Below, piece by piece: positions 2,224 to 54,425 of a DNA stretch of 64,000 bases. The stretch spans positions 89,758 to 153,757 of the forward strand of contig JBFLWK010000001.1 in the NCBI GenBank assembly GCA_040757695.1. Reading direction: 5' to 3'. Below the pieces are notes generated by a model. It did not search any database. It saw only the letters and a list, made by a program, of their open reading frames with translations, and had not been told where the DNA came from. This DNA is from Elusimicrobiota bacterium (GTDB lineage: Bacteria > Elusimicrobiota > UBA8919). The position numbers and the translations under genes are program-made. Position 1 is the first letter of the stretch. Every line of letters begins with the position of its first letter.

Positions 2224-2318
2224 ACTTTTTTTGACAGGATTAACTGGATTTTGACTTAATCCTGTAAATCCTGTCAGAAATATCTTTTGACTTTATCCTG
2301 TTAATCCTGTCAGGGTCT
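2224..2318. promoter_or_regulatory. Direct-repeat motif ATCCTGT(A/T)AATCCTGTCAG(A/G) ×2 plus a related TTGACAGGATTAA, in the 5' region of the rSAM gene at 1210-2223
   Basis: ttgacaggattaactggattttgacttaatcctgtaaatcctgtcagaaatatcttttgactttatcctgttaatcctgtcagggtc. The same motif is upstream of lysA at ~10258-10282. Confidence 0.5.
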
Positions 2319-4529
2319 CTTTAAAGCAGAAACAGTTTTTAAACTTCTGAACATAACGCCTAAAGTGAACTTTGACTTCCCGAAAATTCTGTCGTGATAG
2401 ATTATTGGAATCTCTTTTATTTTTAACCCGTTTCTGACCGCTTTATAGACCGTTTCTATAAGCACTGATGTGCCTTCAACGGACCGAACTGAATCCATGT
2501 TTATGGATTCAATTGCTCCACGGCTGTAACACCTGAATCCTGATGTGCAATCAAAAATACCGTTAAGTTTAAGTTTATTCCTGACATATAAATTGGCAAG
2601 CCAACTTGCCGATTTTCTTAAAATACTTCTGCCTGTCTCGGCGCCACCTGGGACATATCTTGAGCCGATAACTATATCAAAATAATGTATCCAGTAAAGA
2701 AATTCTGAAATATAGCCAGGGTCATGCGATAAATCCGCATCCATCTCTATGATTGTCTCCGCACCTGTAGATAATGCAGCTGAAAAACCGGCTTTAACCG
2801 CGAGACCTCTTTCATTCCAGTGATTATATTTTTTACTTTTTAGAAGATGTACCTGTGGATATAAAACCGAGAATTGTTGAACTGCTACACCGGTGTCATC
2901 AGTAGAATTATGGTCAACAACATATATCCGAATTGACGGGTACAACACAATAATTTTTTTCAATAAGCCGAGTATATTGTCTCGCTCGTTGAATGCCGGG
3001 ATAACAACAGCGACTTTTGTAACAGGTTCAGTTATTATATTTTTATGTAACTGCTGATGGGCTAATTTTTGGATAAACCTTGAGCCCATAGCAATACTAA
3101 CATCCGTATAAAAATAATGAAAAACCATTCTGATAGCAACTTTTATATATCTTGCCAGTTCACTGAAAGATTTTGTTCGTTGAAGCGTTTGAAAAATATA
3201 GCCGGGTCTGAAATAGAAACTGTAATATGCCCGTTTTAATAGTTTCTCTATTTTTGCTTGATTCATTCTTACCCATGGTGTAGGGATTCGCTGTTCGCCA
3301 AGTTTCATCAAAACAAAATCACGCCAGTAATCAGTGCCTGTATTTTTTACCAGTTGTTTATGAAGTTCGGTAGCGGGTTTCGCAATTGTTCTACAAATCT
3401 GAACATAGTCAAGCGCCAATTTTTTAGCGAATTTTACTGTATCGGTTACCGTATCTTCCGTATCGCCAGGGTTGCCTATCATCAAGAATCCAAGATTTCT
3501 TATGCCGAATTTTTTAGCTGTTTTTATAACAACCGCCGTTCTGTTGTGTGTTATTCCTTTATTCACTTCATTCAGTACCTTTTGCGAACTGGATTCTATA
3601 CCCCAGAAAATCATCCTGCAACCGGATAAAGATGCTTCTTTTAAGATTTCGTCGTCAACAACATCAACTCGCGTTCTGCAACTCCATTGGATATCAAGAT
3701 GCCGGTTTCGTATTTCCTGAAATAGTTTGATAGATTTCTGTTTGTCCACAAAAAAAGTAGCATCAAAAAAGTCAATCTCTCTTACACCATAATCATAATA
3801 ACATTCTTCTATTTCGCGGATAACATTTTCCCAGGTTCTCTCTCGGTAATGGTTTAGTGCAGCGATTGCGCAGAACCTGCATCTATACGGGCAGCCGGTA
3901 GAAGTAAGCATAACGGTAAAATTCTTATTTTGTGAAACAAAAGAATGATAGCGGTCGTTCGGCAGAAGATGTCTTGCCGGGAATGGATAAGTATCAAAAT
4001 TAACCAGTTCTGTATCTGGTGGATTGATATGAACTCCACCATTATTATCGCGCCAGCATAACCCTGGAATATTTTGATACGGTTCTGAATTTTCTAAATT
4101 CCGAATAAACTGCGGTAATGTGCGAACCGCCTCGCCAATCAGCCCGAAATCAATCTCTTTATGCGACATTGTCTCAGTCGGATAAAGTGACATATTTATC
4201 CCGCCGACAAGCACAGGCAATCCCGTTGCGAGTTTCAAATACTGTATCCATTCCAATGTCTCCTGAAAATTGTATGTATCCAGCCGGAATGCAATCAGGT
4301 TGGTGTTAAACATTTTTATTTTTTTCAGGACCTGCTCTTTTGATAACCCGAGTGCATGCGCATCTATTAAGATAACATCATTCCCAGCATGCTCTAAAAT
4401 CGAGGATACATAGGCAAGAATAATCGGCGGTGATAGAGTGAATTCCTCGTCTACAACTTTCAGGTTTTCAGAAAATTTCCTATGATGAAACGGCGGAAAA
4501 ATTAGCGCTACTCGCATAGCAAACACCAT
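2310..4529 (-). CDS. Fusion protein: B12-binding domain + radical SAM core + C-terminal GT2 (DPM1/polyprenyl-phosphate sugar synthase-like) glycosyltransferase
   Basis: N-terminal Rossmann-like B12-binding region (RVALIFPP...LIDAHAL), then rSAM CxxxCxxC (TSTGCPYRCRFCAIA). The C-terminal ~230 aa form a GT-A fold: VAVVIPAFNERDNI...DHNSTDDT...EMDADLSHDP...IVIGSRY. Confidence 0.75.
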   Translation of the reverse strand: MVFAMRVALIFPPFHHRKFSENLKVVDEEFTLSPPIILAYVSSILEHAGNDVILIDAHALGLSKEQVLKKIKMFNTNLIAFRLDTYNFQETLEWIQYLKLATGLPVLVGGINMSLYPTETMSHKEIDFGLIGEAVRTLPQFIRNLENSEPYQNIPGLCWRDNNGGVHINPPDTELVNFDTYPFPARHLLPNDRYHSFVSQNKNFTVMLTSTGCPYRCRFCAIAALNHYRERTWENVIREIEECYYDYGVREIDFFDATFFVDKQKSIKLFQEIRNRHLDIQWSCRTRVDVVDDEILKEASLSGCRMIFWGIESSSQKVLNEVNKGITHNRTAVVIKTAKKFGIRNLGFLMIGNPGDTEDTVTDTVKFAKKLALDYVQICRTIAKPATELHKQLVKNTGTDYWRDFVLMKLGEQRIPTPWVRMNQAKIEKLLKRAYYSFYFRPGYIFQTLQRTKSFSELARYIKVAIRMVFHYFYTDVSIAMGSRFIQKLAHQQLHKNIITEPVTKVAVVIPAFNERDNILGLLKKIIVLYPSIRIYVVDHNSTDDTGVAVQQFSVLYPQVHLLKSKKYNHWNERGLAVKAGFSAALSTGAETIIEMDADLSHDPGYISEFLYWIHYFDIVIGSRYVPGGAETGRSILRKSASWLANLYVRNKLKLNGIFDCTSGFRCYSRGAIESINMDSVRSVEGTSVLIETVYKAVRNGLKIKEIPIIYHDRIFGKSKFTLGVMFRSLKTVSALKRP

Positions 4530-4581
4530 CCTTTTTTATTAAGTTCTTTAATTTAACCACGAAAACACGAAAACACGAAAT

Positions 4582-4630
4582 TTCTACGAAACTTTAGTTT
4601 CGGTTATACCGCCACTAAAGTGGCGTAGAA
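4582..4630. repeat. Double-hairpin intergenic element TTCTACGAAACTTTAGTTTCGGTTATACCGCCACTAAAGTGGCGTAGAA (family copy 1), preceded by (ACGAAAAC)×3
   Basis: Outer stem TTCTACG/CGTAGAA; inner hairpins CGAAAC-TTTA-GTTTCG and GCCAC-TAAA-GTGGC. Confidence 0.7.
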
Positions 4631-4697: not shown

Positions 4698-5774
4698 TTA
4701 TATCATAATGGCTCTGATAATCAATGGTAATAACTGATTGATATTAAAAAACGAATTTATCTGCAGGTTACATTCGTTAGTGCACCAGCATCTGCCGTCG
4801 GCTATGTATTCTCTCGTTTTTTCGGCTGCATCCGAAAACCACAGAGACCTGAAATTGTAATCATAATCCCTTAAATTACCCAATTTCTTATCCAGAGATT
4901 CACAGGGATATACATCTAACGAACTATCTATTACCGTACTTAATCTGCCGGCATAACAATCAATCGGATATTTTTTCGTATTCACAATTTCAGTAACCAA
5001 TTCGCTTATTTTTGTCTTGTATGCTGAATAAAACTCGTAAAAACCGAATCCATTCTTTTTTTCTTTTAACAAATCATTGAGAATCTGAAAATACAATTTC
5101 TGATAATCCGCTATATTTATATCATTAGTCGAGCTATCTGTAAAATTTCTACGGCTAAAGTTTAACCCAACAACATCCGGTGACAAATTATTTTTTATGT
5201 ATGTATAAGTATCGCTGAGTGTGTCTTGATTCAACTTTGAGAATGTTAGTAGGATACCGAGTTTAAAATTTGGATATTTCTGTTTCAATCCTTTCAATAC
5301 AGTAAATGTTTCAATATCTTTATTAAAACTACCGTCAATTGCTCTGATATTATCATGCTTTTCACCAATGCCGTCAATAGATATTTTAACTAAAATTTTT
5401 GTCTTACCTGCAATCTTAAGTATCTTTCGGGTTGAATCAAAAATCTTCTCCGTAAAAAAACCGTTGGTCGGAATAGAAATTCTGGCAACTTTGTTTATGT
5501 TAACAAATAGTCCAGCGATTTCTGACAAATCCTCTCTTAAAAACGGCTCACCACCAGTCAAACTCAAAAAACTGAACCTGCCTAAACTGGGAATTATTCT
5601 TTTTAATTCATCTAAAGTAAACTCCACATTTGCTTTGTTCAAATTCTGTCGGTAGAAACAATGCTGGCAGTTCATATTACATCTGTTTGTGACAAAAAAT
5701 GTTACCTGTTCCGGTAGAACACCATTATGCAAAAATATCTTTTTTGACCATCGTATTTTATCAGAAACAGCCAT
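4698..5774 (-). CDS. Radical SAM enzyme with C-terminal auxiliary Cys cluster (SPASM/twitch-like)
   Basis: NRCNMNCQHCFY is CxxxCxxC; LTGGEPFL; C-terminal Cys motif CYAGRL...YPCESL...DGRCWCTNEC. Confidence 0.75.
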   Translation of the reverse strand: MAVSDKIRWSKKIFLHNGVLPEQVTFFVTNRCNMNCQHCFYRQNLNKANVEFTLDELKRIIPSLGRFSFLSLTGGEPFLREDLSEIAGLFVNINKVARISIPTNGFFTEKIFDSTRKILKIAGKTKILVKISIDGIGEKHDNIRAIDGSFNKDIETFTVLKGLKQKYPNFKLGILLTFSKLNQDTLSDTYTYIKNNLSPDVVGLNFSRRNFTDSSTNDINIADYQKLYFQILNDLLKEKKNGFGFYEFYSAYKTKISELVTEIVNTKKYPIDCYAGRLSTVIDSSLDVYPCESLDKKLGNLRDYDYNFRSLWFSDAAEKTREYIADGRCWCTNECNLQINSFFNINQLLPLIIRAIMI

Positions 5775-6899: not shown

Positions 6900-7514
6900 T
6901 TAAAGCCGAAGGTTGTGGAAACGGTAGTAAAGGCAAGGTGATAAGGTGATAAGGTGATAAGGTGATAAGTAAAAACAAGGAAGTAAAACAACAAAACCTA
7001 AAAGAAGCAAGAATAGTTTTTCAAAAAATTTCTTTAAAACCGTAAATATAACTGCTAAATCTGCAATCTGCAATCTGCAATCTGCAATCTTCAAATAGTG
7101 TTTAGCCACTGTGAATAACTTCTGGAGCAAATTCACAACCAGGATTTGTGAATGAACCGGTGTATTGAATGTCAGTGTGATGAGTGAACTCAAAAAAAGC
7201 GTCCGAAGTCCGAGGCCGGGGATTCGAGACCTGTCATTCTGAGCCGAAGGCGAAGAATCTTGTGTGTTAACACCAGGATTCTTCACTTCGCTGACGCTCC
7301 GTTCAGAATGACAACCTTCTACTCGCAACTCGCTACTCGCTACTTGCTGGTTTTGGGTATCTCTTTCATCCAGACCGCTGTCCCAATTCTTGATTGCCTG
7401 TTTTACTTCATTAGGGCAATTGGGATTGATAGTATTTGCAAAACAAAAAGCACTCGCTAACCCTATTAAGAAAGCGGCAGAAACTATAATAATAATAATT
7501 TCTCGTTTTGACAT
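6900..7514 (-). CDS. Hypothetical small secreted/membrane protein. Only the N-terminal ~60-100 aa look genuine; the 3' part of the ORF runs through SSRs and an inverted-repeat element.
   Basis: N-terminus MSKREIIIIIVSAAFLIGLASAFCFANTINPNCPNEV looks like a signal/TM segment followed by a Cys-containing mature region. The downstream part of the ORF spans the palindromic element at ~7232-7313 and (aatctgc)n / (ggtgataa)n repeats, so the true stop is doubtful. Confidence 0.25.
   Translation of the reverse strand: MSKREIIIIIVSAAFLIGLASAFCFANTINPNCPNEVKQAIKNWDSGLDERDTQNQQVASSELRVEGCHSERSVSEVKNPGVNTQDSSPSAQNDRSRIPGLGLRTLFLSSLITLTFNTPVHSQILVVNLLQKLFTVAKHYLKIADCRLQIADLAVIFTVLKKFFEKLFLLLLGFVVLLPCFYLSPYHLITLSPCLYYRFHNLRL
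7057..7093. repeat. 5× AATCTGC heptanucleotide repeat, with 3× GGTGATAA octamer repeat at 6948-6971, in the 5' region ~150-290 nt upstream of the GT2 gene at 5776-6804
   Basis: ctgcaatctgcaatctgcaatctgcaatct; ggtgataaggtgataaggtgataagg. Confidence 0.8.
7232..7313. repeat. Large imperfect inverted repeat: TGTCATTCTGAGCCGAAGGCGAAGAATC ... GATTCTTCACTTCGCTGACGCTCCGTTCAGAATGACA
   Basis: The two arms share the termini TGTCATTCTGA and GAAGAATC in opposite orientation. A related element is at 40419-40495. Confidence 0.6.
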
Positions 7515-8036
7515 TTTTTGTTCAATCCTTTTTTTTCGGCAGTCAAGCCTCCAAAAATAGCAAATAGCTTCTGGCTTATAGCATATAGTTTTTATAGAAC
7601 TATTCTGCGAAACTTTACCCCGTATCTAATACGGGGCGATGCTAAAGCCTCGTAGAATAAAACCTTACCGAAATTGCAAACTGTTACAGAACCACATTTG
7701 CTATTTTCGTTTAACTATACTTACATCGGCTCGGTACTATGGTACTATAATTATAAAGAATTTTTTGAATTTTGTCAATTACTTTTTTTGTAGTTTCTGT
7801 AGTCAAAAAGAAAACAAGATAACACAGTCTGAAGCCTGCGGCTACCAACCAACAAGGTAGCCGCTCCGATAAATCGGAGCCGCAAAGGACGGTAGAAAGC
7901 TTTTAATTGAAATTTCTGGGTTAAAAAGAAGTGTAAGCACGAAACAAGCGAGCAACCACGAGCAGCAGTGTGTCTCCCGATATTCATCGGGTTCGCAATG
8001 ATACAGGAAATAGATGTCAACCAATTTTGTGGATAT

Positions 8037-8066
8037 CAAAAATGTAAGCATTTGCTTACATTTTTA
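8037..8066. repeat. Perfect palindrome AATGTAAGCATTTGCTTACATT (copy 1 of 3), immediately downstream of the dapF stop
   Basis: Identical 22-mer at ~8041-8062, ~8869-8890 and ~31695-31716; flanked here by A/T runs. Confidence 0.8.
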
Positions 8067-8865: not shown

Positions 8866-8890
8866 AAAAATGTAAGCATTTGCTTACATT
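8866..8890. repeat. Palindrome AATGTAAGCATTTGCTTACATT (copy 2) in the lysA–dapF junction, overlapping the lysA stop
   Basis: Exact match to copies 1 and 3. On the transcribed strand the hairpin is followed by TTTTTAGACG, so it could act as an attenuator/terminator or an operator. Confidence 0.8.
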
Positions 8891-10462: not shown

Positions 10463-11341
10463 TCATTCAATATATTTCTGTAAAGCAATTGCAAGTTTTT
10501 TAGAAAGCGTGTTTTCTTCGGTATTTAACAAAACTGCCAGATTTTTTTTAGCTTCTGCGATATTATTCTTTTTTAGATAAGTTAGTGCAACTAAAAAATG
10601 CGCATTCACCGCTGTAAAGTTAGAAATTGCGATATCTGGATTTTTTTTCATATTAATATATCCTTCTAAAATTCGGGAATCAAACGATGTAGTAAAAAAT
10701 GGTTCTGATTCAGCATATTTACCAGTTAAAACATTCAACTGTAAAATACTGTTTTTTATACTATCGGTTGGACATAGTGCCAGCGCCCTTTTGTATAAAT
10801 CAATAGCTTCGTTATCTCGCCCGGTATTTTTATAAATAACCGCAAGCCCGTTTAATGCTTCAATACTGCTGTTATCAAGTTGCAGTACTTTTTTATAGTA
10901 TTCTTCTGCCTTTTCGTATAGCAATTTTTTATAATAAACCGCACCCAGCCCGAGATAAATCCGTATATCTTTTGAGCCGTATTTTAATGCTTTATTATAT
11001 TCAAAAATCGCTTCATTATGCATATCAGCACCGCGATATGCCTCCCCTAATTTTAGAAGGACAACCGGGTTTTTTTTCTTAATTTTTTTGGCATCAGTAT
11101 AAAATGTAATTGCATAACTGTACTCGCCACGCATTAAATACTCATCACCTTTAGAGATATAGAATCTAATTTTTTCTTTTTTTGATTCTGCATATAAAAA
11201 GATGGAAAGATAGAAAGATAGAAAGATGGAAAGATAGAGAGATGGAAAGATAGAAAGATGGAAAGATAGAAAGGAAAATCTATTGCCCAACCACCTAGCC
11301 ATCTTACCATCTATCCATCTATTAGAATAGTATTTTTTCAT
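10463..11341 (-). CDS. TPR-repeat protein with a repeat-encoded hydrophobic N-terminus
   Basis: Several TPR-like segments (AITFYTDAKKI..., LYEKAEEYYKKVLQLD...). The N-terminal FSFLSFHLSIFPSLYLSIFLSFYLSIFLY is encoded by 8-nt tandem repeats (agatRgaa)n at ~11199-11275. Confidence 0.5.
   Translation of the reverse strand: MKKYYSNRWIDGKMARWLGNRFSFLSFHLSIFPSLYLSIFLSFYLSIFLYAESKKEKIRFYISKGDEYLMRGEYSYAITFYTDAKKIKKKNPVVLLKLGEAYRGADMHNEAIFEYNKALKYGSKDIRIYLGLGAVYYKKLLYEKAEEYYKKVLQLDNSSIEALNGLAVIYKNTGRDNEAIDLYKRALALCPTDSIKNSILQLNVLTGKYAESEPFFTTSFDSRILEGYINMKKNPDIAISNFTAVNAHFLVALTYLKKNNIAEAKKNLAVLLNTEENTLSKKLAIALQKYIE
11199..11275. repeat. Tandem octanucleotide repeats (AGATAGAA/AGATGGAA, ~9 units) inside the 5' coding end of the TPR gene
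   Basis: Read directly from the sequence. The unit length is not a multiple of 3 and gives an 8-aa periodic hydrophobic peptide. Confidence 0.8.
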
Positions 11342-12294
11342 TTTAGAAATACTATTTTATCAATAAACTTTTCAAGTATTTTATCTTTGATAGCATTCGC
11401 CTTACTTCTTGTGGCAACAAGCCCTGCCTCTATACATTCTGCTGACCTGTCAAGTTCTATCATACTCACATTTTTTATATTCGGTATTATTACAAAATCG
11501 GCATTTTTTATCTGATTAGATACCAGGAATCCAGCTTGAATATTTATCGCCTGAATGAGTGTTTTCATAACATTATCTATATTAAATAATGAATAATCTA
11601 CCTGTGGCCAGACAGCAATTACAAAATCGGCAGCCATTACTTTTGCGATATCAATCGGTAGATTATCAACCAACCCGCCGTCTACAAGCAGCCGATGTCG
11701 GTATTCAACCGGCTTAAAGAGACCCGGGATTATTGCAGAAGCACGCATTGCAAATGCTGCCTCGCCTTCCTTAAAAACGATTCGTTCACCAGTTTTTATA
11801 TCACAGGCGATACAGGCAAACGAAATTTTTAACTCGTCAAACCTTTTTTGCCTGATATGTTTTTCCAGATATTTTTCAAGTTTTTCTGTGCTTAACAGCG
11901 ATTCCGCAGTAATAAGTGTTAGCAGTTTAGTTGCTGAAAGATTTGATATTTTATTCCAGCCAATATCAGTCCCTATCCGTTCTATATCAGTTATCGCCAT
12001 ACCTGTCGCATAGAGCCCGCCAACAAGCGCACCGGCACTGGTACCAACAATAATATCAGTCGGTATATTATTTTCTTGAAGCACCTTTAAGACGCCGATA
12101 TGACTCAGACCTCGTGCGCCGCCACCACCTAATACTACCGCGATTTTAGGCCGCTTAGAGTTCAATGCTAAAAAATCTTTCCATAATAAATCTCTTAATA
12201 AATTATCAGATTGAGCATAAAGGCAGGTAAAAGGTAAAAGGTAAAAGGTAAAAAGTAAAAGGTAAAATCTCAAACTGCGAAGAACAGGATACAT
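11338..12294 (-). CDS. Patatin-like phospholipase
   Basis: GGGARG oxyanion motif, GTSAGA (GxSxG nucleophile elbow), DGGLVDN (catalytic Asp). The signal peptide RFYLLLFTFYLLPFTCLYAQ is encoded by heptamer repeats. Confidence 0.8.
   Translation of the reverse strand: MYPVLRSLRFYLLLFTFYLLPFTCLYAQSDNLLRDLLWKDFLALNSKRPKIAVVLGGGGARGLSHIGVLKVLQENNIPTDIIVGTSAGALVGGLYATGMAITDIERIGTDIGWNKISNLSATKLLTLITAESLLSTEKLEKYLEKHIRQKRFDELKISFACIACDIKTGERIVFKEGEAAFAMRASAIIPGLFKPVEYRHRLLVDGGLVDNLPIDIAKVMAADFVIAVWPQVDYSLFNIDNVMKTLIQAINIQAGFLVSNQIKNADFVIIPNIKNVSMIELDRSAECIEAGLVATRSKANAIKDKILEKFIDKIVFLK
12226..12268. repeat. 6× GGTAAAA heptanucleotide tandem repeat (coding strand TTTTACC) encoding FYLLPFT in the signal peptide of the patatin gene
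   Basis: ggtaaaaggtaaaaggtaaaaggtaaaaagtaaaaggtaaaa. The 7-nt unit is in frame only in multiples of three units. Confidence 0.85.
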
Positions 12295-12297
12295 TTT

Positions 12298-13593
12298 TTA
12301 TTCAATAATTTTGCCGATACTGGTTTCTAAATTGATTTTTGCGATTATAACATCTTTCAATGCATCAATATATTCAAGTTGGATATTCATCGCTGTCTCT
12401 AACATTTCAATAAACTCAAGATATGTAAGTTCTTTTAATACCTCATCTGTTACAGTTGTAGCAAGTTGTTCTTTTTCGTTAGTTTTTTGTTCAAACTTTT
12501 TAACTGCAAACTCGTAATCAACAAAACATTTTCTTACCTCGGCCTGGATTGAGTCGGTAATACTTGCTCGGTTAATCTGTGTTTTTCTATATTGGTACTT
12601 TTTTTGTTTTATTCGGGCAAACTGACCAAAACCATCAAATATCGGTAGTGTAAAATTTATAGTTGCATTCCACGCTCTTTTTTCAAATGGCAACTGTCTA
12701 TCTTCAAGTTGATAGTTGCCACCGAGTGTAATTATAGGATACCTGCCGGATAATGATAGGTTTACTGAAAGCGCATCCATCTGTTCCTGAAGTTGCGTTT
12801 TTTTAAGTTCAGGCCGATATTCAAGCGCCCAGGCAATGCATTTATTGAGGTCTACCACAGCCTTTTTGTGCTCTAACTCGCCTTTGATTGTGAATATCGT
12901 ATTTAACTCTATCCCGATAGAATCAAGAAAATCAATTTCTGCCAGTTCCAGTTCTTTCTGGTTTTTGGTTTCTGCTGATTTTATTTTTTCAATTTTTTTT
13001 TCAGATATAAATCTGTCTTTAGGGTTTAAAGACTCATTTTTTCTATTTGATATTTTTTCAATAGTTGCTTTATAAATCTCAACTTTTTTCTGGATTGATA
13101 GAAGTGTATAGAAATTTTTTTTAGCCGATGAGCCTGTTTTGTTTTTGATTACCTCGTAATCACTTTCAGCCGATTTCAATTCTGTTTCTGCAAACTTCTT
13201 TGTAGCAGAAATTTTGGCACCACTCCATAATATCTGATAGAGCGAAATTTTGGCTGTATAATAATCTTCAATGTTATCAACCAGTGGCTCAATTTTTTGT
13301 GGCAGGATAGTGTTGCCCAAAATAGGCGAAATCAACAGCGGGCTTTCGGCTTTGAATTTGGAATAGTTGGCGTTGAACTCCAATTGCGGATACATTATTG
13401 ACCGCGCTTCTTTCAGCCGTTGTCTGGCAATCTCTATATCCTGTCGGGCGGATAGAAGTTGCTGGTTGTTTGAAATCGCAAGATTAACACTATCGTCAAC
13501 TGTTAAAACTCTTTCTACAAGTTGCTGGGAATAGAGACAGGTAAAAGGTAAAAGGTAAAAGGTAAAAGGTAAAAGGTAAAAAAATTTTTTCAT
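12298..13593 (-). CDS. TolC-like outer membrane efflux protein (OEP family)
   Basis: Signal peptide, then a TolC-type N-terminus LTVDDSVNLAISNNQQLLSARQDIEIARQRLKEARSIMYPQLEFNANYSK; two-repeat coiled-coil architecture; 431 aa. Confidence 0.65.
   Translation of the reverse strand: MKKFFYLLPFTFYLLPFTCLYSQQLVERVLTVDDSVNLAISNNQQLLSARQDIEIARQRLKEARSIMYPQLEFNANYSKFKAESPLLISPILGNTILPQKIEPLVDNIEDYYTAKISLYQILWSGAKISATKKFAETELKSAESDYEVIKNKTGSSAKKNFYTLLSIQKKVEIYKATIEKISNRKNESLNPKDRFISEKKIEKIKSAETKNQKELELAEIDFLDSIGIELNTIFTIKGELEHKKAVVDLNKCIAWALEYRPELKKTQLQEQMDALSVNLSLSGRYPIITLGGNYQLEDRQLPFEKRAWNATINFTLPIFDGFGQFARIKQKKYQYRKTQINRASITDSIQAEVRKCFVDYEFAVKKFEQKTNEKEQLATTVTDEVLKELTYLEFIEMLETAMNIQLEYIDALKDVIIAKINLETSIGKIIE
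13540..13581. repeat. 6× GGTAAAA heptanucleotide repeat encoding FYLLPFTFYLLPFT in the TolC-like signal peptide
   Basis: Near-identical ~50-nt cassette (acag + 6 units + aaaaattttttCAT) to those at 12226 and 20440. Confidence 0.85.
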
Positions 13594-16757: not shown

Positions 16758-17122
16758 TTTTCCCCCTTGTTAGAGAAAAGTTTACTTTCTATTATTAGTA
16801 TATAGAATATTTTACTTTTTGTCAATAGTTTTTTTGTTTTGTAAATTTTTTTATATTTAAGGTAAGGACATTAGGCAGGTTTTACCGTCTCGGAATTGGC
16901 TTTACCACTGAATACTCTGAAGTCACTGAACATACTTTTTTTCTCGCTATCTTCTGTGTCCTCTGGGGTTTCTTTCGTTTAGCCTGGAAGCCTCAGTTGA
17001 AAGTTTTCTACCGTCTAAATGCATCTAACTTTTTTGTTCGTGGTAGCCGATGCTTCAGTGCCACCGATACTGAAGCCCACAAGGGGCTGAAGTATCGGCT
17101 ACAAAAGGCACTTCAGCGTCGG
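16758..17122. repeat. 365-nt non-coding region dense in direct/inverted copies of GTAGCCGATRCTGAAG/CTTCAG motifs
   Basis: tggtagccgatgcttcagtgccaccgatactgaagccc...ggctgaagtatcggctac...cacttcagcgtcggctacc. It shares cagtgccaccgatactgaa with the element at 47114. Confidence 0.5.
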
Positions 17123-31597: not shown

Positions 31598-31694
31598 TGT
31601 AACTCCTGATATAACAGTAAATTCTAAATCCTAAATTTCAATTAGACCATTTGGGCTAATTGAAAAATCAAAAATTACCGACGACCAATATTCA

Positions 31695-31716
31695 AATGTA
31701 AGCATTTGCTTACATT
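31695..31716. repeat. Palindrome AATGTAAGCATTTGCTTACATT (copy 3), ~100 nt upstream of the acsD start
   Basis: Exact 22-mer identical to copies flanking dapF. Confidence 0.8.
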
Positions 31717-43022: not shown

Positions 43023-43706
43023 TTACCTTACGATTTTGGTTTTTACATTACCAATAATAGAAACTGTTTCTTTGTCAACTGCAAGCACGATTTTGTCACC
43101 GGAGTACTCTGAAACACCATCGGCATCAGTTCTGACTATTTTTGGTGGACCGCCTAAAAGTAAAATTTCGTTTGTTTTATGGTCGTAAAATGCTTCCTTA
43201 CTGAATGCTTCTGTTTCCGATTGAGAAATTTTAACATTTTGGATTGCATGGAACCGGTCGCCGAACTCAAAAATCTCTAATTCTTCACATTTTAATTCAA
43301 TAACATCTGTTGTGTTCTGGCTTAATGTTCTTTTTACTTTTACATTCTTTTTCAAAATACCCTGTCCGTTATTTTTGTTATATTCTGCTTCATCACCCCA
43401 GGAATATGTAACGGATGTGCCACTGGAATAACAGATATAGATATTTCCGGTGCCTGAAATCACACTTGTTTTTTCGTTTGATTTCATTTTATCCGCAGAG
43501 ATTGTAAGGTTCTGCTGTGTAAATTTTACATTCCCAATAAATTCAAGAATCTCGCCTTTAGATAGTATCTTCATCTGGTCACCGGTGATTGTTGCCTGTT
43601 CACCAGCATAGAGGCAGTAAATAAGTGAATAAGTGAGTAAGTGAATAAGTGAAAGACACATAACCACATAACCACTTAACCACTCAACCACTTTATTTAT
43701 CTTCAT
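43023..43706 (-). CDS. LptA/OstA-like periplasmic LPS-transport protein
   Basis: Beta-jellyroll OstA-type repeats (ITGDQMKILSKGEILEFIGNVKFTQQNLTISADKM...); adjacent to lptC-like; signal peptide encoded by octamer repeats. Confidence 0.5.
   Translation of the reverse strand: MKINKVVEWLSGYVVMCLSLIHLLTYSLIYCLYAGEQATITGDQMKILSKGEILEFIGNVKFTQQNLTISADKMKSNEKTSVISGTGNIYICYSSGTSVTYSWGDEAEYNKNNGQGILKKNVKVKRTLSQNTTDVIELKCEELEIFEFGDRFHAIQNVKISQSETEAFSKEAFYDHKTNEILLLGGPPKIVRTDADGVSEYSGDKIVLAVDKETVSIIGNVKTKIVR
43621..43692. repeat. Two blocks of 8-nt tandem repeats (AAGTGAAT ×4; CATAACCA ×4) encoding the signal peptide of the LptA-like gene
   Basis: ataagtgaataagtgagtaagtgaataagtgaaagacacataaccacataaccacttaaccactcaaccac. 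Confidence 0.8.
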
Positions 43707-44344
43707 TTTTTTATTACTTTGACATTTTTTAAAATTGTTATATCTGATAGGTCAGCATTCGCTTCTAAACCGATACCTGTAATCGTCACATCCTGTTTTT
43801 CCTGACGGATAGGGCTATCAGATAAGACCTTGCCAGTTTTTTCAGAATAGTTTATTGATTCTGTAAAAATTGTTGTCGCTCTTGATAACGAAAAAATTAC
43901 AACATTCCCGGAAGCCTGAATATCGCCTGTTTTTGTCTGCATTCCCGCATTATCCGCTGTGATGATAGACGATATTTTTTTATTGTTTTCGTAAAAAGTC
44001 ATTTTTATTTTTTTTGTATTGATACTATTTCTTTTTTCGTATATATCACCTCTATCAGCGACAAAATTCCATTTTTGGTTTTCAAGTTCATATTTATCTA
44101 TTGAAAAATTTTTTACAACCTGGTCAGGAAACGAATCGTTTATAACAATTTTTTCAACTTTTCTACTACACGAAAATTGCATAACCACAGTGACAGCGAG
44201 CCACAGCGAAAAAAATACGTCAACAAGATAACCTGAACAGGTTCGGGACCCCAGAACTGAAATTCTACGACACTTCAGTGTCGGTTCTGATTCAGTTTTT
44301 ATTTTTGTGTATCTGTGGTATAATACTTTATAACTTTGCCCCAT
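43703..44344 (-). CDS. LptC-like membrane-anchored LPS export protein
   Basis: N-terminal TM, then an LptC-type beta-jellyroll segment (…FYENNKKISSIITADNAGMQTKTGDIQASGNVVIFS…); position upstream of lptA-like and next to kdsC. Confidence 0.5.
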   Translation of the reverse strand: MGQSYKVLYHRYTKIKTESEPTLKCRRISVLGSRTCSGYLVDVFFSLWLAVTVVMQFSCSRKVEKIVINDSFPDQVVKNFSIDKYELENQKWNFVADRGDIYEKRNSINTKKIKMTFYENNKKISSIITADNAGMQTKTGDIQASGNVVIFSLSRATTIFTESINYSEKTGKVLSDSPIRQEKQDVTITGIGLEANADLSDITILKNVKVIKK

Positions 44345-46006: not shown

Positions 46007-46267
46007 TCATTTTACATTTTTCATTGGTTCAGTCTTTTCATACATTGGATATTCTGATTCCCAAGTTGGTAAATTTCGGTCAAACTTATCAAGAAAAAAG
46101 CGGGCAACAAAAAACAAAACAATCACAATAGCATAGATTATTCCTAAAACTTTTAAGTGCCATTTCCAACTCGGTCGCCACGGGATATAAGTCAAATCCA
46201 CACCACAACCCTTACAGAATTTCGCAGAATCCTTGTTCTCCATCTGACAGTTATAACATTTAATCAT
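46007..46267 (-). CDS. Small zinc-ribbon + single-TM protein
   Basis: CYNCQMENKDSAKFCKGCG, then a hydrophobic helix. Confidence 0.35.
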   Translation of the reverse strand: MIKCYNCQMENKDSAKFCKGCGVDLTYIPWRPSWKWHLKVLGIIYAIVIVLFFVARFFLDKFDRNLPTWESEYPMYEKTEPMKNVK

Positions 46268-47073
46268 TTCAGCACCTCATACAAAAAATTTTTCAATTCG
46301 GATAGTTTTATTGAGTTGGGGCCGTCGGAAAGTGCTTTTTCGGGCACAGGATGGACTTCTAAAAAAAGTGCATCTACGCCAACGGCAATAGCCGCTTTTG
46401 ATAATGGCAGAATAAATTCTTTCTGTCCACCGGTTCTATCACCAAGCCCGCCTGGAAGTTGAACACTGTGCGTAGCATCAAACACAACCGGATAACCAAA
46501 CTTTTTCAGTATCACAACAGACCGGAAATCAACTACAAGATTGTTGTAACCGAAACAGGTACCACGTTCTGTTAACAAAATTTTTCTATTACCGGTAGAT
46601 TCAATTTTTTCTATCACATTTTTCATATCGGCTGGTGCAAGAAATTGTGCTTTCTTTATATTTATCGTCTTATTGGTTTTTGCGGCGGTAACTATCAAAT
46701 CTGTCTGCCGACATAAATATGCAGGGATTTGAATTATATCCGCAACTTCCGCTACAAACCGGACATCGTGAGTGCAGTGAACATCAACCAAAATTGGGAT
46801 ATTATACTTTTGCTTAACCTTTGCCAGAATCTTAAGCCCTTTTTTAAGCCCGGGACCTCTGAATGATTTTATTGATGTTCGGTTTGCTTTATCATATGAT
46901 GCCTTAAAAATAAATGGAATTTTTAGATTCTGCGTAATCTCTTTTAATTTTTCTGCGATATCTGCGGTACTTTTTTCGGTTTCAATCACGCAGGGACCTG
47001 CAATCAAAACGACAGGATTCCCACCCTCACCACCAACTTTTATATTACTGATTTTAATTTCTCTAAGAATCAT
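46264..47073 (-). CDS. kdsA: 2-dehydro-3-deoxyphosphooctonate aldolase (KDO8P synthase)
   Basis: GGEGGNPVVLIAGPCVIE, FKASYDKANRTS, HCTHDVRF, and other DAHP/KDO8PS TIM-barrel blocks. Confidence 0.9.
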   Translation of the reverse strand: MILREIKISNIKVGGEGGNPVVLIAGPCVIETEKSTADIAEKLKEITQNLKIPFIFKASYDKANRTSIKSFRGPGLKKGLKILAKVKQKYNIPILVDVHCTHDVRFVAEVADIIQIPAYLCRQTDLIVTAAKTNKTINIKKAQFLAPADMKNVIEKIESTGNRKILLTERGTCFGYNNLVVDFRSVVILKKFGYPVVFDATHSVQLPGGLGDRTGGQKEFILPLSKAAIAVGVDALFLEVHPVPEKALSDGPNSIKLSELKNFLYEVLK

Positions 47074-47097: not shown

Positions 47098-47184
47098 GAC
47101 CCTGCCATTACTACAGTGCCACCGATACTGAAACTTCTACGAAACTTAGCGCTTATTCTATACTGCCACTAAAGTGGCATAGAA
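47098..47184. repeat. Composite intergenic repeat: CAGTGCCACCGATACTGAA (shared with 17060) + ~50-nt double-hairpin element TTCTACGAAACTT...TGCCACTAAAGTGGCATAGAA
   Basis: Same family as 4582-4630 and 54359-54417. Confidence 0.65.
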
Positions 47185-47236: not shown

Positions 47237-47980
47237 TCAAATTATTTCAATATATTTTTTTTCTACCCAGCCACGAACACCGAGTGATTTTACGCCTATC
47301 TCTAACCACTCGCCCCCCTCGCCTGATGTTCCTAACAGTATCACCTTTTTACCTTCCGGCACGGTAAAGTTAACCTTGAAATTAGTATCAGGTCCTGACC
47401 TAACCTCAGCGGTATTGATAACAACTGCTTCCTGCCGGGCTTGTTGACGGTATTTTATCAAATAGAGTGCTGAAAAGAAACCAAAAAATAAAACTGATAC
47501 AACAACCAGCCAAAACATTTTTTTAAACGGATAAACAAATTTTATAGAAATAACAACTACAAAACTAAACAACGAAATCGCAAATAATAATCTTAACCTG
47601 TTTATATTAAACCTTGAAATCAGTGATTGCTCGTAATCCGGGTCTTTTATCAGTTGTGCAATAAACTTTATGTTATAATTAACATCGTCATCCGCTGGCG
47701 AAATTTTTCTTGCTTTTTCATAATAGACCATTGCTAAACCAATTCTACCCAGTCGGAAATAGGTGTTGCCAAGATTATAAAAAAGGTTTGTAGACGGATA
47801 CGATTTTTCAATTATTAAAAACTGTTCAAGTGCTTTTTCATAGTTGCTCTTTTTGTAAAACTCGCAGCCGGTAGAAAAAATTTCAGTTTCTGAAACAGCA
47901 TAGAGGTGATTGCAGATTGCAGATTGCAGATTGCAGATTAAAAACAACAAAAAAATTTGTAATTTTTTCATATTTCCCAT
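47237..47980 (-). CDS. batE: BatE-like TPR + bacterial SH3 domain protein
   Basis: TPR units; C-terminal SH3b (VINTAEVRSGPDTNFKV...GEWLEI...RGWVEKKYIE); signal peptide encoded by (GATTGCA)n. Confidence 0.55.
   Translation of the reverse strand: MGNMKKLQIFLLFLICNLQSAICNHLYAVSETEIFSTGCEFYKKSNYEKALEQFLIIEKSYPSTNLFYNLGNTYFRLGRIGLAMVYYEKARKISPADDDVNYNIKFIAQLIKDPDYEQSLISRFNINRLRLLFAISLFSFVVVISIKFVYPFKKMFWLVVVSVLFFGFFSALYLIKYRQQARQEAVVINTAEVRSGPDTNFKVNFTVPEGKKVILLGTSGEGGEWLEIGVKSLGVRGWVEKKYIEII
47907..47940. repeat. 4.5× GATTGCA heptanucleotide repeat (coding strand CTGCAAT) encoding LQSAICNLQSAICN in the batE-like signal peptide
   Basis: tgattgcagattgcagattgcagattgcagatta. The same unit (aatctgc) is repeated at 7057-7093. 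Confidence 0.85.
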
Positions 47981-52555: not shown

Positions 52556-53478
52556 CCTTCTTTTGGTTTTACCATTTCAACTATATTTCTTGCATTTTCA
52601 AAACTTTGGATTATGTCTTTTTCTTCAGGTATATATCTAGCAAATTTTACAAGGTCAGAAAATTCAAAAAACTCACGAAGTATTACTAGAAATTTTTTGT
52701 CCACAGATTTTTCACGAAGTGCTTTTATTGATTCAGAAGTGGTCATATCTATAATATTCACTAAAAATATCTTCGATAAATAAATCCGAACAATTTGTGT
52801 CAGCCGAAAATAAAATTCTTTCACCAGCCCTCTTTTTATCAAATCCGTTTTTTCCAGTTTTGCGAGTTCATCAGTCGCATACAAGTACGGGTCTACTATT
52901 TCATCAATAATTTGTGCAAAATTCTTTTTCTGTAATTGATACTTATAAATAAAATAACACAGCAAAACTAATATCGGGATACCTGCAACAAGAATATAAA
53001 AAACAGGGTGGTGCTTCAAGTTCACAGGCGGTTTGATGTCTTTTATATCAGCCGCACTTTCTTTATCCAGCAAACTCGTAACTTCTATCCTGATGGGATT
53101 CGTCTGGCTCTGTGCTGGTTTGCCGTCTTGCGTGATAAAATCTATAATGAACGGTTTTATCTCGTAAATCCCGGTTGTGAATGTAGCAAGAATATACTCA
53201 TATTTTTTTTTATATCGCCCGAATAACAGATATTTTTTTCTTTCTTTTGTAATTTTGTAATCTTTGATTTCAAAACTTTTAAGATTTTGTTCTGGTGTAA
53301 AGGAACTAATTTTTACGCCATCTGTATATTCTAGAATAAGCGTCAGTTTTACCTTATCGCCAATTGTTATTTTCTTTTTGTCAGTATAACCTAAAATATA
53401 GACATTGGATAAAAGTGGTTGCACAAAACAACCAATGAAAAATATCCAAGACGATAATCTGCGTAATCTATAATTCAT
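52534..53478 (-). CDS. DUF4381-like membrane protein of the Bat/MoxR operon
   Basis: Signal/TM at the N-terminus plus a central TM (VFYILVAGIPILVLLCYFI); operon position between DUF58 and batA. Confidence 0.4.
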   Translation of the reverse strand: MNYRLRRLSSWIFFIGCFVQPLLSNVYILGYTDKKKITIGDKVKLTLILEYTDGVKISSFTPEQNLKSFEIKDYKITKERKKYLLFGRYKKKYEYILATFTTGIYEIKPFIIDFITQDGKPAQSQTNPIRIEVTSLLDKESAADIKDIKPPVNLKHHPVFYILVAGIPILVLLCYFIYKYQLQKKNFAQIIDEIVDPYLYATDELAKLEKTDLIKRGLVKEFYFRLTQIVRIYLSKIFLVNIIDMTTSESIKALREKSVDKKFLVILREFFEFSDLVKFARYIPEEKDIIQSFENARNIVEMVKPKEGSLEFRV

Positions 53479-54368
53479 CTGTGTAATCTGCGTTCTCGCA
53501 TCTTAAAAAAATTTATCAACGGCAAAATGTATGCCTTATCAGTATAGAGGTTTAATTTATCAATCCCCATATTTTTAGATAGTTTTTCAAGGTATTCCAA
53601 GTTTTTATTTTTTGTTTCAGAAAATTTTTTCAGCAAAAAATAATCTTTTGCATCTACATAGATATCAGTGTTTGTTTCAGCATCTACAAAATGAAAAATC
53701 CCAAAGTTCGGGATTTCGTATTCCATCTGGTCACTAATATTTACAAGTATCAAATCATGTTTTTTAGATGTAACTTTTAATAGTTTATCATAACCAACAT
53801 CTAAAAAATCAGACAATAGAAAAACAACTGCCCGCTTTTTAATCACCCTGTTTAAGTAATCCAGTGCATTATAAATATCCGTTTGTGCTTTTGCTTCTTG
53901 TGAGAGAACTTCGCTGACAATTCTTAAACAATGAATTTTACCTTTCTTAGGCGGAATAAATTTTTCTATTTTATCCGAAAAAAATATAACACCTATTCTA
54001 TCATTGTTCTGTAGTGCAGAAAAACCGAGAATCCCGCATAACTCCGCAATCAGGTCAATTTTTGACTTTTTAGAACCAAACTTTTGAGAACCAGAAATAT
54101 CAATAAGCAACATTATCGTAAGTTCGCGTTCTTCAATAAACTTCTTTACAAAAAGTGAAGCATATCGTGCAGAAACATTCCAGTCAATTGTCTTTATGTC
54201 GTCACCAGCTTGATATTCACGAACTTCAGAGAATTCCATCCCTCTGCCTTTGAATACACTTTTATACTCACCAGCAAAAATCTCATTAACAAATTTTCCT
54301 GTTGTGATTTCTATTTTTCTTATTTTTTTTATTAACTCACCAGTCAACATATTATTACTTCTACGCAA
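53475..54368 (-). CDS. DUF58 family protein (VWA-like, MoxR partner)
   Basis: DDIKTIDWNVSARY...LLIDISGSQKFGS, the characteristic DUF58 segment. Confidence 0.7.
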   Translation of the reverse strand: MRRSNNMLTGELIKKIRKIEITTGKFVNEIFAGEYKSVFKGRGMEFSEVREYQAGDDIKTIDWNVSARYASLFVKKFIEERELTIMLLIDISGSQKFGSKKSKIDLIAELCGILGFSALQNNDRIGVIFFSDKIEKFIPPKKGKIHCLRIVSEVLSQEAKAQTDIYNALDYLNRVIKKRAVVFLLSDFLDVGYDKLLKVTSKKHDLILVNISDQMEYEIPNFGIFHFVDAETNTDIYVDAKDYFLLKKFSETKNKNLEYLEKLSKNMGIDKLNLYTDKAYILPLINFFKMRERRLHR

Positions 54369-54417
54369 CTTTAGTTGCGGTTGAAACCGTTATACCGACG
54401 CTAAAGCGTTGTAGAAG
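54359..54417. repeat. Double-hairpin intergenic element TTCTACGCAACTTTAGTTGCGG...CGACGCTAAAGCGTTGTAGAA (family copy 3)
   Basis: Both internal hairpins are retained through compensatory changes relative to copy 1: cgaaac/gtttcg becomes gcaac/gttgc, and gccac/gtggc becomes acgc/gcgt. Confidence 0.7.
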
Positions 54418-54425
54418 TCATTATT

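What the first reader, a model, noticed from the sequence alone, without database searches (positions are those of the whole stretch)
4582..4630. Dispersed ~50-nt double-hairpin element family with compensatory base changes (three copies)
Copies at 4582-4630, 47135-47184 and 54359-54417 share the outer inverted termini TTCTACG...CGTAGAA and two internal hairpins closed by TTTA and TAAA loops. Between copies the stems change sequence but keep pairing: CGAAAC/GTTTCG versus GCAAC/GTTGC, and GCCAC/GTGGC versus ACGC/GCGT. That is covariation evidence for a conserved secondary structure. All three sit just downstream of gene ends, and one is extended by the 19-mer CAGTGCCACCGATACTGAA that also occurs at 17060. 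This could be a novel terminator/REP/MITE-like family or a small structured RNA.
Basis: seen in the sequence. Interest (0 to 1): 0.6.

Follow-up and report, generated by a model that had tools for sequence, protein, structure and literature searches.

The report
REP-like hairpin repeats linked to RAYT
The flagged repeats are real copies of a small palindromic intergenic repeat family of the REP/REPIN kind; in related bacteria the same hairpin units flank a RAYT-like single-strand DNA transposase gene, so this is an unusual variant of a known type of miniature mobile DNA, not a new RNA gene or a terminator.

Summary
The window is from an Elusimicrobiota MAG with 35% GC and all genes on the minus strand. 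It carries four inverted doublets (4582-4630, 7603-7657, 47135-47184, 54359-54416) and one single arm (44263-44285).

The repeated unit is a 23-nt arm, TTCTAC-[5-bp stem]-TTTA-[stem]-GGT. Seven good arms are found where 0.06 are expected. Across 31 arms from this window and from other phyla, the stems differ but stay Watson-Crick paired (87% against 55% in shuffles, 0/500 shuffles as high). G-U pairs are almost absent.

The same arms, in modules of 2-4 hairpins, occur in Patescibacteria and Elusimicrobia contigs. In four full-length loci from separate contigs they bracket a 185-199 aa HUH/Y1 protein. Its predicted fold is closest to E. coli TnpA_REP (4ER8). Two further contigs carry truncated copies next to an arm.

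Three of the five window sites are empty in relatives. The elements have no T-tail, no consistent target duplication and no Rfam match.

Best reading: a REP/REPIN-like family mobilised by RAYT-like transposases. It is atypical in three ways: GTAG lies 3' of the hairpin, the loop is conserved, and the stems are hypervariable. No RAYT lies in the window, and the rest of the source genome could not be searched.

The parts
4582..4630 (.). Doublet copy 1. Left arm 4582-4604 is TTCTAC-GAAAC-TTTA-GTTTC-GGT. The inverted right arm 4608-4630 has stem GCCAC/GTGGC. It lies between the radical-SAM gene 4698..5774(-) and the radical-SAM/GT2 gene 2310..4529(-).
   Evidence: (37.0 and 35.4 bits; these arms were part of the model's seed).
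7603..7657 (.). Doublet copy 4, not in the finding. The left arm is degenerate (TTCTGC-GAAAC-TTTA, no partner strand). A central hairpin CCCCGTAT-CTA-ATACGGGG follows. The right arm 7635-7657 has stem GAGGC/GCATC with 4/5 pairs. It lies 88 nt upstream of the ATG of gene 6900..7514(-) and downstream of a 12/12 sigma-70-like promoter at 7778..7750(-).
44263..44285 (+). Single arm TTCTAC-GACAC-TTCA-GTGTC-GGT. It lies in the kdsC|lptC spacer. The mechanical ORF 43703..44344 overruns it, but alignment with a relative's LptC places the true start near 44230.
47135..47184 (.). Doublet copy 2. The left arm 47135-47157 has decayed and forms no hairpin. The right arm 47162-47184 is TTCTAT-GCCAC-TTTA-GTGGC-AGT on the minus strand. 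It lies between the TPR/SH3 gene 47237..47980(-) and kdsA 46264..47073(-).
   Evidence: 30.4 and 17.1 bits.
54359..54416 (.). Doublet copy 3. The left arm has stem GCAAC/GTTGC. The centre reads GGTTGAAACC-GTTATACC. The right arm has stem (A)ACGC/GCGT. It lies 8 nt after the moxR stop (54426) and 8 nt before the DUF58 ATG (54350).
   Evidence: The site is empty in relatives L045 and L047.
47114..47132 (+). The 19-mer CAGTGCCACCGATACTGAA, 2 nt from copy 2. Whether it belongs to the family is unproven.
   Evidence: exact, 0 expected.
17056..17074 (+). Second copy of the 19-mer. Here it forms one arm of a long hairpin of about 70 nt at 17040-17110. It probably belongs to a different repeat.

Best explanation
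These are members of a REP/REPIN-like family of miniature palindromic repeats.

The unit is a 23-nt arm: TTCTAC, then a 5-6 bp hairpin with a TTTA loop, then GGT. Two arms in inverted orientation form the mobile doublet, TTCTAC...GTAGAA. Relatives carry one or two extra hairpins between the arms.

Shown:
- The arm hairpin is under selection for Watson-Crick pairing, while its stem sequence is free to vary.
- In Patescibacteria and other contigs, the same arms bracket a single HUH/Y1 transposase gene of the RAYT type.
- Several sites occupied in the window are empty in related Elusimicrobia.
- There is no consistent target-site duplication.

Inferred:
- A RAYT-like enzyme binds the extruded hairpin in single-stranded DNA. 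It reads the invariant flanks and loop rather than the stem.
- It cuts near the TTCTAC/GTAGAA boundary and copies or moves the doublet into intergenic DNA.
- Once inserted, the elements are co-transcribed with the flanking co-directional genes. Like other REPs, they may incidentally affect mRNA stability or translation of the neighbouring cistrons. Copy 3 abuts both a stop codon and a start codon.
For: Arms and statistics: (7 observed against 0.06 expected).

Covariation on 31 arms from the window and 12 loci: 87.1% of cells paired against 55.2% in shuffles. There are 45 cells with changes on both sides against 16.1. The covariation score is 0.683 against 0.164, and 0/500 shuffles reach it. 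Sliding the partners by 1-3 columns drops pairing to 18-56%. Only 2 G-U pairs occur.

Relatives with the same termini and loops carry 2-4 hairpins: L002, L003, L008 (three elements in 2.5 kb), L011, L021, L024, L027, L030, L037, L040.

Partner gene. L030 818-1381(-) lies between two elements. It matches Pfam Y1_Tnp at E=9.4e-7, 29.4 bits, above the 23-bit cut-off. Its best NCBIfam match is REP_Tyr_transpos, E=1e-9, against IS200 at E=0.0018. The AF2 model has pLDDT 90. Foldseek puts 4ER8_A, TnpA_REP bound to a REP hairpin, at the top: E=1.4e-8, TM 0.62/0.69, ahead of ISDra2 and IS608.

The 90 homologues found include an invariant H..Y115-x3-N119 and a nearly invariant H-Y-H in the 25 aligned. 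JGI names some of them 'REP element-mobilizing transposase RayT'.

Three more such genes (L041, L042, L043) all have the arms on both sides. In L030, L042 and L043 the arms occur only next to the gene within 13-20 kb. Truncated copies lie next to an arm in L033 and L036.

Empty sites. moxR|DUF58 has a 0-2 nt spacer in L045 and L047. The SH3|kdsA and kdsC|lptC junctions carry no element in L046.

No consistent flanking direct repeat: 12 of 20 elements have none of 4 nt or more.
Against: No RAYT-like gene lies in the 64-kb window (tblastn). The rest of the source MAG could not be searched, so the cognate enzyme for these particular copies is not shown.

None of the RAYT homologues that carry a name is from Elusimicrobiota.

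The canonical REP tag, a 5' GT[AG]G at the hairpin foot (PMC3479197, PMC6006769), is not met. Here GTAG is 3' of the hairpin.

The protein falls below NCBIfam's RAYT cut-off (38.5 against 80 bits). It has Y-x3-N-L where class 2 proteins have Y-x3-N-P (PMC6006769).

The arms within this one window have different stems. That is unlike recently amplified REPIN populations.

Three relatives at 77-80% DUF58 identity show no arms in 51.5 kb.
Confidence: 0.78

Rival explanations
1. The primary function is at the RNA level. On this reading the element is a cis-acting structured segment of the operon mRNAs, kept for that role rather than spread by a transposase. It could be a 3'-exonuclease barrier, a processing site, a translational coupler or occluder, or a small RNA.
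For: All copies lie between co-directional genes and are likely to be transcribed. Copy 4 follows a 12/12 promoter match. Copy 3 sits 8 nt from both a stop and a start codon. In several Patescibacteria loci the GTAGAA end lies 4-13 nt before an ATG. The folds are significantly stable, with z from -3 to -6. REPs in E. coli are reported to have such secondary effects (background in PMC3733652 and PMC6006769).
Against: The element reads the same on both strands: left loops are TTTA and right loops TAAA. An RNA function does not require that symmetry. G-U pairs are almost absent (2 of 135 paired cells). Orthologous junctions work without the element, with a 0-2 nt spacer. The number of hairpins varies from 1 to 4. 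Rfam gives no hit. The tight link to a Y1 transposase gene is unexplained.
Confidence: 0.12
2. Rho-independent, possibly bidirectional, transcription terminators.
For: The elements contain palindromic stems placed after gene ends.
Against: No T tract follows the element on either strand. The terminator scan calls none of the copies. Copy 3 lies inside the moxR-DUF58-BatD-VWA operon, 8 nt before the next start codon. Copy 4 lies in a 5' leader.
Confidence: 0.03
3. A MITE derived from a DDE-type insertion sequence, with TTCTACG/CGTAGAA as its terminal inverted repeats.
For: The element has terminal inverted repeats, small size, intergenic insertion and presence/absence polymorphism. Copy 3 is flanked by AATAATG on both sides.
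Against: There is no consistent target-site duplication: 12 of 20 elements have no flanking direct repeat of 4 nt or more. The selected feature is an intra-arm hairpin, not arm-to-arm identity. The only gene repeatedly bracketed by the arms is a Y1/HUH protein.
Confidence: 0.03
4. Ends of an autonomous IS200/IS605-type insertion sequence. The window copies would then be its deletion derivatives (PATE-like), rather than a domesticated RAYT/REPIN system.
For: The partner protein matches Pfam Y1_Tnp. In L041 the gene sits inside one inverted pair of arms that share the same stem, CCAGC.
Against: The protein's sequence and fold are closer to TnpA_REP than to IS200, IS608 or ISDra2 transposases. 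Only one gene copy is seen per 20-kb locus, and it sits among housekeeping genes. IS200/IS605 left and right ends are different hairpins on one strand, whereas these ends are symmetric.
Confidence: 0.04

Closest known systems
REP / REPIN elements with RAYT (TnpA_REP) transposases, arranged as REPtrons. Examples are E. coli REP/BIME, Pseudomonas REPINs and the GTAG-tagged REP super-family (PMC3733652, PMC3116915, PMC3479197, PMC6006769).
   Same: Both are short extragenic hairpins, mostly in inverted doublets with GTAG-bearing ends outside; this resembles the 'HH dimers' of PMC3733652 in the position of the tag, but not in strand polarity (see 'different'). Many are heterodimers whose two stems differ. 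Both show complementary stem variants, lie between co-directional genes and lack target duplication. In both, a single Y1/HUH gene is flanked by the repeats. The partner protein's fold is closest to 4ER8.
   Different: GTAG lies 3' of the hairpin; the 5' side reads CTAC. The tetraloop is conserved and switches polarity across the element (TTTA, then TTAA, then TAAA). Stems are short (5-6 bp) and hypervariable even within a single 64-kb window. Relatives carry modular arrays of 2-4 hairpins. The flank and loop motif is shared between Patescibacteria and Elusimicrobiota, whereas REPs are usually species-specific. The protein has Y-x3-N-L, not Y-x3-N-P, and falls below the NCBIfam RAYT cut-off.
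IS200/IS605 family ends and their miniature derivatives (PATEs)
   Same: Both have subterminal DNA hairpins read by a Y1 HUH transposase in single-stranded DNA. In both, specificity comes from short sequences next to the hairpin foot, and neither makes a target duplication.
   Different: IS200/IS605 ends are asymmetric and strand-specific, and the elements are multi-copy and gene-bearing. Here the ends are symmetric, and the gene looks single-copy in each fetched locus of 13-20 kb.
TIRYT / TIRtron systems: RAYT-like genes flanked by terminal inverted repeats, and Bacteroidetes subclass 2.6 with 'atypical secondary structures' (PMC3733652, PMC6006769)
   Same: These are RAYT-like genes whose flanking repeats do not fit the canonical 5'-GTAG REP, and copies of those repeats occur elsewhere in the genome.
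   Different: Their motifs differ (for example GGGGWSAS TIRs).

Membership tests
REP/REPIN (RAYT-associated repetitive extragenic palindromes) | Short (about 20-40 nt) imperfect palindrome able to form a hairpin | tested here: met
   The arms are 23 nt with 5-6 bp stems. Covariation is 87% against 55% paired, with 0/500 shuffles as high.
REP/REPIN (RAYT-associated repetitive extragenic palindromes) | Extragenic and present in many copies per genome | tested here: inconclusive
   There are 9 arms at 5 intergenic sites in 64 kb, and none lies inside a gene. The genome-wide count is unknown, because the source genome is in neither scanned collection.
REP/REPIN (RAYT-associated repetitive extragenic palindromes) | Conserved GT[AG]G tetranucleotide 5' to the hairpin foot (PMC3479197, PMC6006769) | tested here: not met
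   GTAG is nearly invariant, but it lies 3' of the hairpin: ACC-hairpin-GTAGAA. On the strand where the tag is 5', it reads CTAC.
REP/REPIN (RAYT-associated repetitive extragenic palindromes) | Two REPs in inverted orientation form the replicating doublet (REPIN) | tested here: met
   Four of the five window sites, and most relatives, are inverted doublets with the tags outside.
REP/REPIN (RAYT-associated repetitive extragenic palindromes) | A RAYT gene flanked by the same repeats (REPtron) | tested here: inconclusive
   Met in relatives: L030, L041, L042 and L043, plus remnants in L033 and L036. No such gene lies in the window, and the rest of the source MAG could not be tested.
RAYT / TnpA_REP (class 2 TnpA_Y1) - applied to the partner protein in relatives | HUH motif, catalytic Tyr and the Y-x3-N-P signature (PMC6006769) | tested here: inconclusive
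   H-Y-H is nearly invariant, and Y115-x3-N119 is invariant. The next residue is an invariant Leu, not Pro.
RAYT / TnpA_REP (class 2 TnpA_Y1) - applied to the partner protein in relatives | Sequence or fold membership | tested here: inconclusive
   Pfam Y1_Tnp scores 29.4 bits, above the 23-bit cut-off. NCBIfam REP_Tyr_transpos is the best hit but scores 38.5 bits against a cut-off of 80. A PDB profile search found nothing. Foldseek's top hit is 4ER8_A, E=1.4e-8, TM 0.62/0.69.
RAYT / TnpA_REP (class 2 TnpA_Y1) - applied to the partner protein in relatives | Single copy per genome, vertically inherited | not testable with these tools
   Only 13-20 kb around each gene could be fetched. Each locus holds one copy.
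Intrinsic (Rho-independent) terminator | G+C-rich hairpin followed directly by a T/U tract | tested here: not met
   The scan calls no terminator at any copy, and the tails are AGTAGC, ATCAGG, GTCATT and TAAAAC.
MITE of a DDE transposon | Terminal inverted repeats plus a fixed-length target-site duplication | tested here: not met
   Terminal inverted repeats are present. There is no consistent flanking direct repeat: 12 of 20 elements have none.
Any Rfam RNA family | Match at the gathering threshold | tested here: not met
   There are no matches in the whole window.

The most novel reading that the evidence does not exclude
This may be a distinct REP/RAYT lineage shared across phyla (Patescibacteria, Elusimicrobiota and others). 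In it the transposase would recognise hairpin shape together with an invariant loop and flanks, and would not read the stem. The tag would lie on the opposite side from canonical REPs. Elements would be built as modular strings of mini-hairpins whose loop polarity flips at the centre. Stems would then be free to diversify, or to be generated anew, within one genome. That would give a REP population with conserved 'punctuation' and hypervariable 'words', present even in the very small genomes of CPR bacteria.
Probability: 0.3. Interest if true: 0.6.

Novelty: new variant of a known kind. Interest (0 to 1): 0.4.

Why it matters
REP/RAYT systems have been characterised mostly in Proteobacteria, with some in Cyanobacteria and Bacteroidetes. 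I found no paper in the searchable library that describes them in Patescibacteria or Elusimicrobiota.

This family pairs invariant flanks and loop with freely covarying stems. That makes it a natural experiment on what a Y1/HUH enzyme reads in a DNA hairpin. Its mirrored GTAG tag would test the 'guide tetranucleotide' model.

There is also a practical point. These elements insert into very tight operon junctions, 8 nt from a stop and a start codon. They can mislead gene callers: two mechanical ORFs in the window run over an arm.

Tried and rejected
- Rfam on the whole window at gathering threshold, and on the two long hairpin-rich spacers at E<=1: nothing credible.
- Pattern scans of genome contigs and metagenome contigs. 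They did not recover the source genome, but they did yield the relatives. About half of the hits were chance matches in coding or high-GC DNA with unpaired 'stems'.
- Viral contigs: no arms and no RAYT homologue.
- Extending the source contig through end-of-window proteins. This gave only a 3.7-kb Logan contig or no record.
- tblastn of the RAYT-like protein against the window: no hit.
- PDB search by sequence: a single query reached 4ER8 only at E=0.9, and the profile found nothing. The fold search was needed.
- A covariance model of the arm found no members in the window beyond the nine already known.
- tRNA-like cloverleaf, integron attC and CRISPR-repeat readings were considered from the sequence. 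I dropped them because the loops are tetraloops, there is no GTTRRRY/RYYYAAC core, and there are no regular arrays.
- Target-site duplication: the AATAATG at copy 3 looked promising but does not generalise.
- The 19-mer could not be tied to the family.

Full report
**What is in the window**

The window has 35% GC, and every substantial ORF is on the minus strand. The genes are ordinary chromosomal ones: radical-SAM enzymes, dapF, argG, a PHP-domain protein, kdsA and a moxR-DUF58-BatD-VWA operon. Exact-sequence look-ups place the window on a 155-kb contig of an Elusimicrobiota MAG.

Pattern scans and a hairpin scan add a fourth doublet at 7603-7657 and a single arm at 44263-44285.

**The repeated unit**

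The unit is not the 50-nt element but a 23-nt arm: TTCTAC, a 5-bp stem, a TTTA loop, the complementary stem, then GGT. A full element is two such arms in inverted orientation. It therefore begins TTCTAC and ends GTAGAA, with a TTTA loop on the left and a TAAA loop on the right. Both strands read alike.

The window holds seven good arms plus two decayed ones. A first-order Markov model of the window gives 0.06 arms on average and at most 1.

**Structure**

The arm stems in the window are GAAAC, GCCAC (twice), GCAAC, ACGC, GACAC and GAGGC. Each is matched by its own complement.

To test this on more data I used arms from complete elements found in other contigs. Completeness was defined by having two inverted ends, not by pairing. 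On 31 arms the 5-bp helix is paired in 87.1% of cells, against 55.2% after shuffling partners. There are 45 cells with changes on both sides against 16, and 0 of 500 shuffles reach the observed values. Sliding the partners by 1-3 columns collapses pairing to 18-56%.

Only two G-U pairs occur among 135 paired cells. Together with the strand symmetry, this points to a Watson-Crick DNA hairpin rather than an RNA-specific helix.

For the AT-rich two-arm copies in this window, the computed minimum-energy fold is one long imperfect hairpin. It arises because CTTTAG on the left pairs with CTAAAG on the right. For the GC-richer relatives, the minimum-energy fold is mostly the string of local hairpins (4 of 5 folded; the L030 element folds as an outer helix enclosing two hairpins). 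Covariation supports the local hairpins, and both states are accessible.

**Relatives**

The arm pattern gave 13 stretches in 185,579 species genomes and 26 stretches in JGI metagenomes. About half of those are chance hits in coding or high-GC DNA with unpaired 'stems'.

The rest are clearly the same family. They have TTCTAC...GTAGAA ends and 2-4 hairpins. Left loops are TTTA, a central loop is TTAA, and right loops are TAAA. Among them:
- Magasanikbacteria (L002).
- Falkowbacteria (L008), with three elements in 2.5 kb.
- Paceibacterota (L013).
- An Elusimicrobia MAG (L003/L019).
- Many unlabelled groundwater or sediment contigs.

The source genome is in neither collection. IMG/VR viral contigs hold none.

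**The partner gene**

In L030 a 187-aa gene lies between two elements. The evidence on this protein is:
- It matches Pfam Y1_Tnp above the gathering score.
- Its best NCBIfam match is 'REP-associated tyrosine transposase', ahead of IS200, though below the curated cut-off.
- It has 90 homologues. The named ones are from Patescibacteria lineages or unclassified 'bacterium' MAGs. JGI labels some of them RayT.
- An alignment of 25 homologues shows a nearly invariant H-Y-H and an invariant Y115-x3-N119-L.
- The AlphaFold model has pLDDT 90. Its best PDB match is 4ER8, E. coli TnpA_REP bound to a REP hairpin, at E=1.4e-8 and TM 0.62/0.69. ISDra2 and IS608 transposases follow.

I fetched three more family members with 10-kb flanks. 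All three have the arms on both sides. In L042 and L043, as in L030, good arms are found only next to the gene; L043 has one weak 3-mismatch match elsewhere. In L041 the gene sits inside one inverted pair of arms that share the stem CCAGC. Truncated gene copies lie next to an arm in L033 and L036.

This is the REPtron arrangement described for RAYTs (PMC3733652, PMC6006769).

**Evidence for insertion**

Relatives with 77-80% identical DUF58 proteins were fetched. In L045 and L047, moxR and DUF58 are separated by only 0-2 nt. The window has a 75-nt spacer at that junction, filled by the 58-nt element. L046 carries an unrelated hairpin insert at the same junction. L046 also has no element at its SH3|kdsA and kdsC|lptC junctions.

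No good arms (at most 2 anchor mismatches, at least 4/5 stem pairs) occur in 51.5 kb of these three relatives. Flanking direct repeats are inconsistent: 12 of 20 elements have none. That fits Y1 chemistry rather than a DDE transposase.

**What it is not**

None of the copies is followed by a T tract or called terminator-like. Copy 3 lies within an operon, and copy 4 lies in a leader behind a 12/12 promoter match. Rfam has no match. No RAYT-like gene lies in the window.

**Comparison with the known families**

Functionally and architecturally this is a REP/REPIN-RAYT system. As in the 'HH' dimers of GTAG REPs (PMC3733652), the GTAG-bearing ends lie outside, though with the opposite strand polarity (5'-CTAC-hairpin...hairpin-GTAG-3'). 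It also shows their heterodimeric stems and complementary stem variants.

It fails one defining feature. Canonical REPs carry GT[AG]G 5' of the hairpin foot, and TnpA_REP reads that tag base-specifically (PMC3479197, PMC6006769). Here GTAG is 3' of the hairpin.

Other features are also unusual:
- The tetraloop is conserved, and its polarity flips across the element.
- The stems are very short and hypervariable.
- Relatives carry modular hairpin arrays.
- The motif is conserved across phyla.
- The protein has Y-x3-N-L rather than Y-x3-N-P.

I found no paper on REP/RAYT systems in CPR bacteria or Elusimicrobia in the searchable library.

**Verdict**

The finding is a new variant of a known kind of element.

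The main gap is that the cognate RAYT of this particular genome was not seen.

Noticed in passing
window 12225-12267, 13539-13581, 20439-20481, 11194-11273, 47908-47939, 7058-7094, 49692-49803, 4558-4580: There are many 7- and 8-nt tandem repeats. Several lie within about 70 nt of the 5' ends of minus-strand genes. (AGGTAAA)6 is shared by three genes, and (GATTGCA)n occurs in both orientations. They could be slippage-prone (phase-variable) tracts or repeat-encoded N-terminal segments. CACGAAAA x3 abuts copy 1.
   Followed up: partly
window 8038-8062, 8866-8890, 31692-31716: A 25-nt palindrome, AAAAATGTAAGCATTTGCTTACATT, occurs three times; two copies lie just past a gene end and the third lies between two minus-strand genes. 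One copy is called terminator-like. It may be a shared bidirectional terminator or a second small repeat family.
   Followed up: no
window 27299-27348, 37247-37289, 58029-58061: A further palindromic repeat occurs at these sites: TTCCGAACATTTGTTCGG, or GCGAACATTTGTTCGC. At two of the three sites it is tandemly duplicated.
   Followed up: no
window 17040-17110 and 47114-47132: The shared 19-mer is one arm of a long hairpin of about 70 nt at 17040-17110. Only that arm is present next to copy 2. There is no Rfam match. It may be a fragment of another repeat family.
   Followed up: partly
window 7800-7990 and 17000-17015: This is a hairpin-rich non-coding stretch containing GGCTACC..GGTAGCC, GCTCCGA-TAAA-TCGGAGC and then GACGGTAGAAAG. 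The motif GACGGTAGAAA recurs, reverse-complemented, at 17000-17015. It could be decayed relatives of the element or an unannotated RNA. There is no credible Rfam hit.
   Followed up: partly
window 7778..7750 (-) and 16790-16835: A perfect TTGACA-17-TATAAT match lies on the minus strand upstream of copy 4 and gene 6900..7514. A similar sequence lies upstream of a small minus-strand ORF near 16758.
   Followed up: no
window 54350-54425 (gene strand): Copy 3 is flanked by AATAATG on both sides, and the palindrome extends by 2 bp (AC...GT). It looks like a 7-bp duplication that includes the start codon. Flanking repeats are absent from most other elements.
   Followed up: yes
L046 9913-10000: A related Elusimicrobia MAG carries an unrelated 88-nt hairpin-rich insert at the same moxR|DUF58 junction. 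It contains GCGTAATCTG twice and TCCGCCAGCTGGCGGA. The junction may therefore be a hotspot for small palindromic insertions.
   Followed up: no
L008, L027, L042, L043 (arms such as CCAGC-TTTA-GCTG-A-GGG): Many arms in these four loci (those in L042 and L043 lie next to the RAYT gene) have a conserved extra A in the 3' half of the stem. The helix is then CCCAGC/GCTG(A)GGG with a bulge. This recalls the stem irregularities that Y1 transposases use for recognition.
   Followed up: no
window 43703-44344 and 53475-54368: The mechanical ORFs overrun the elements. The LptC and DUF58 start codons are really near 44230 and at 54350. Element insertions can therefore mislead start-codon calls.
   Followed up: yes
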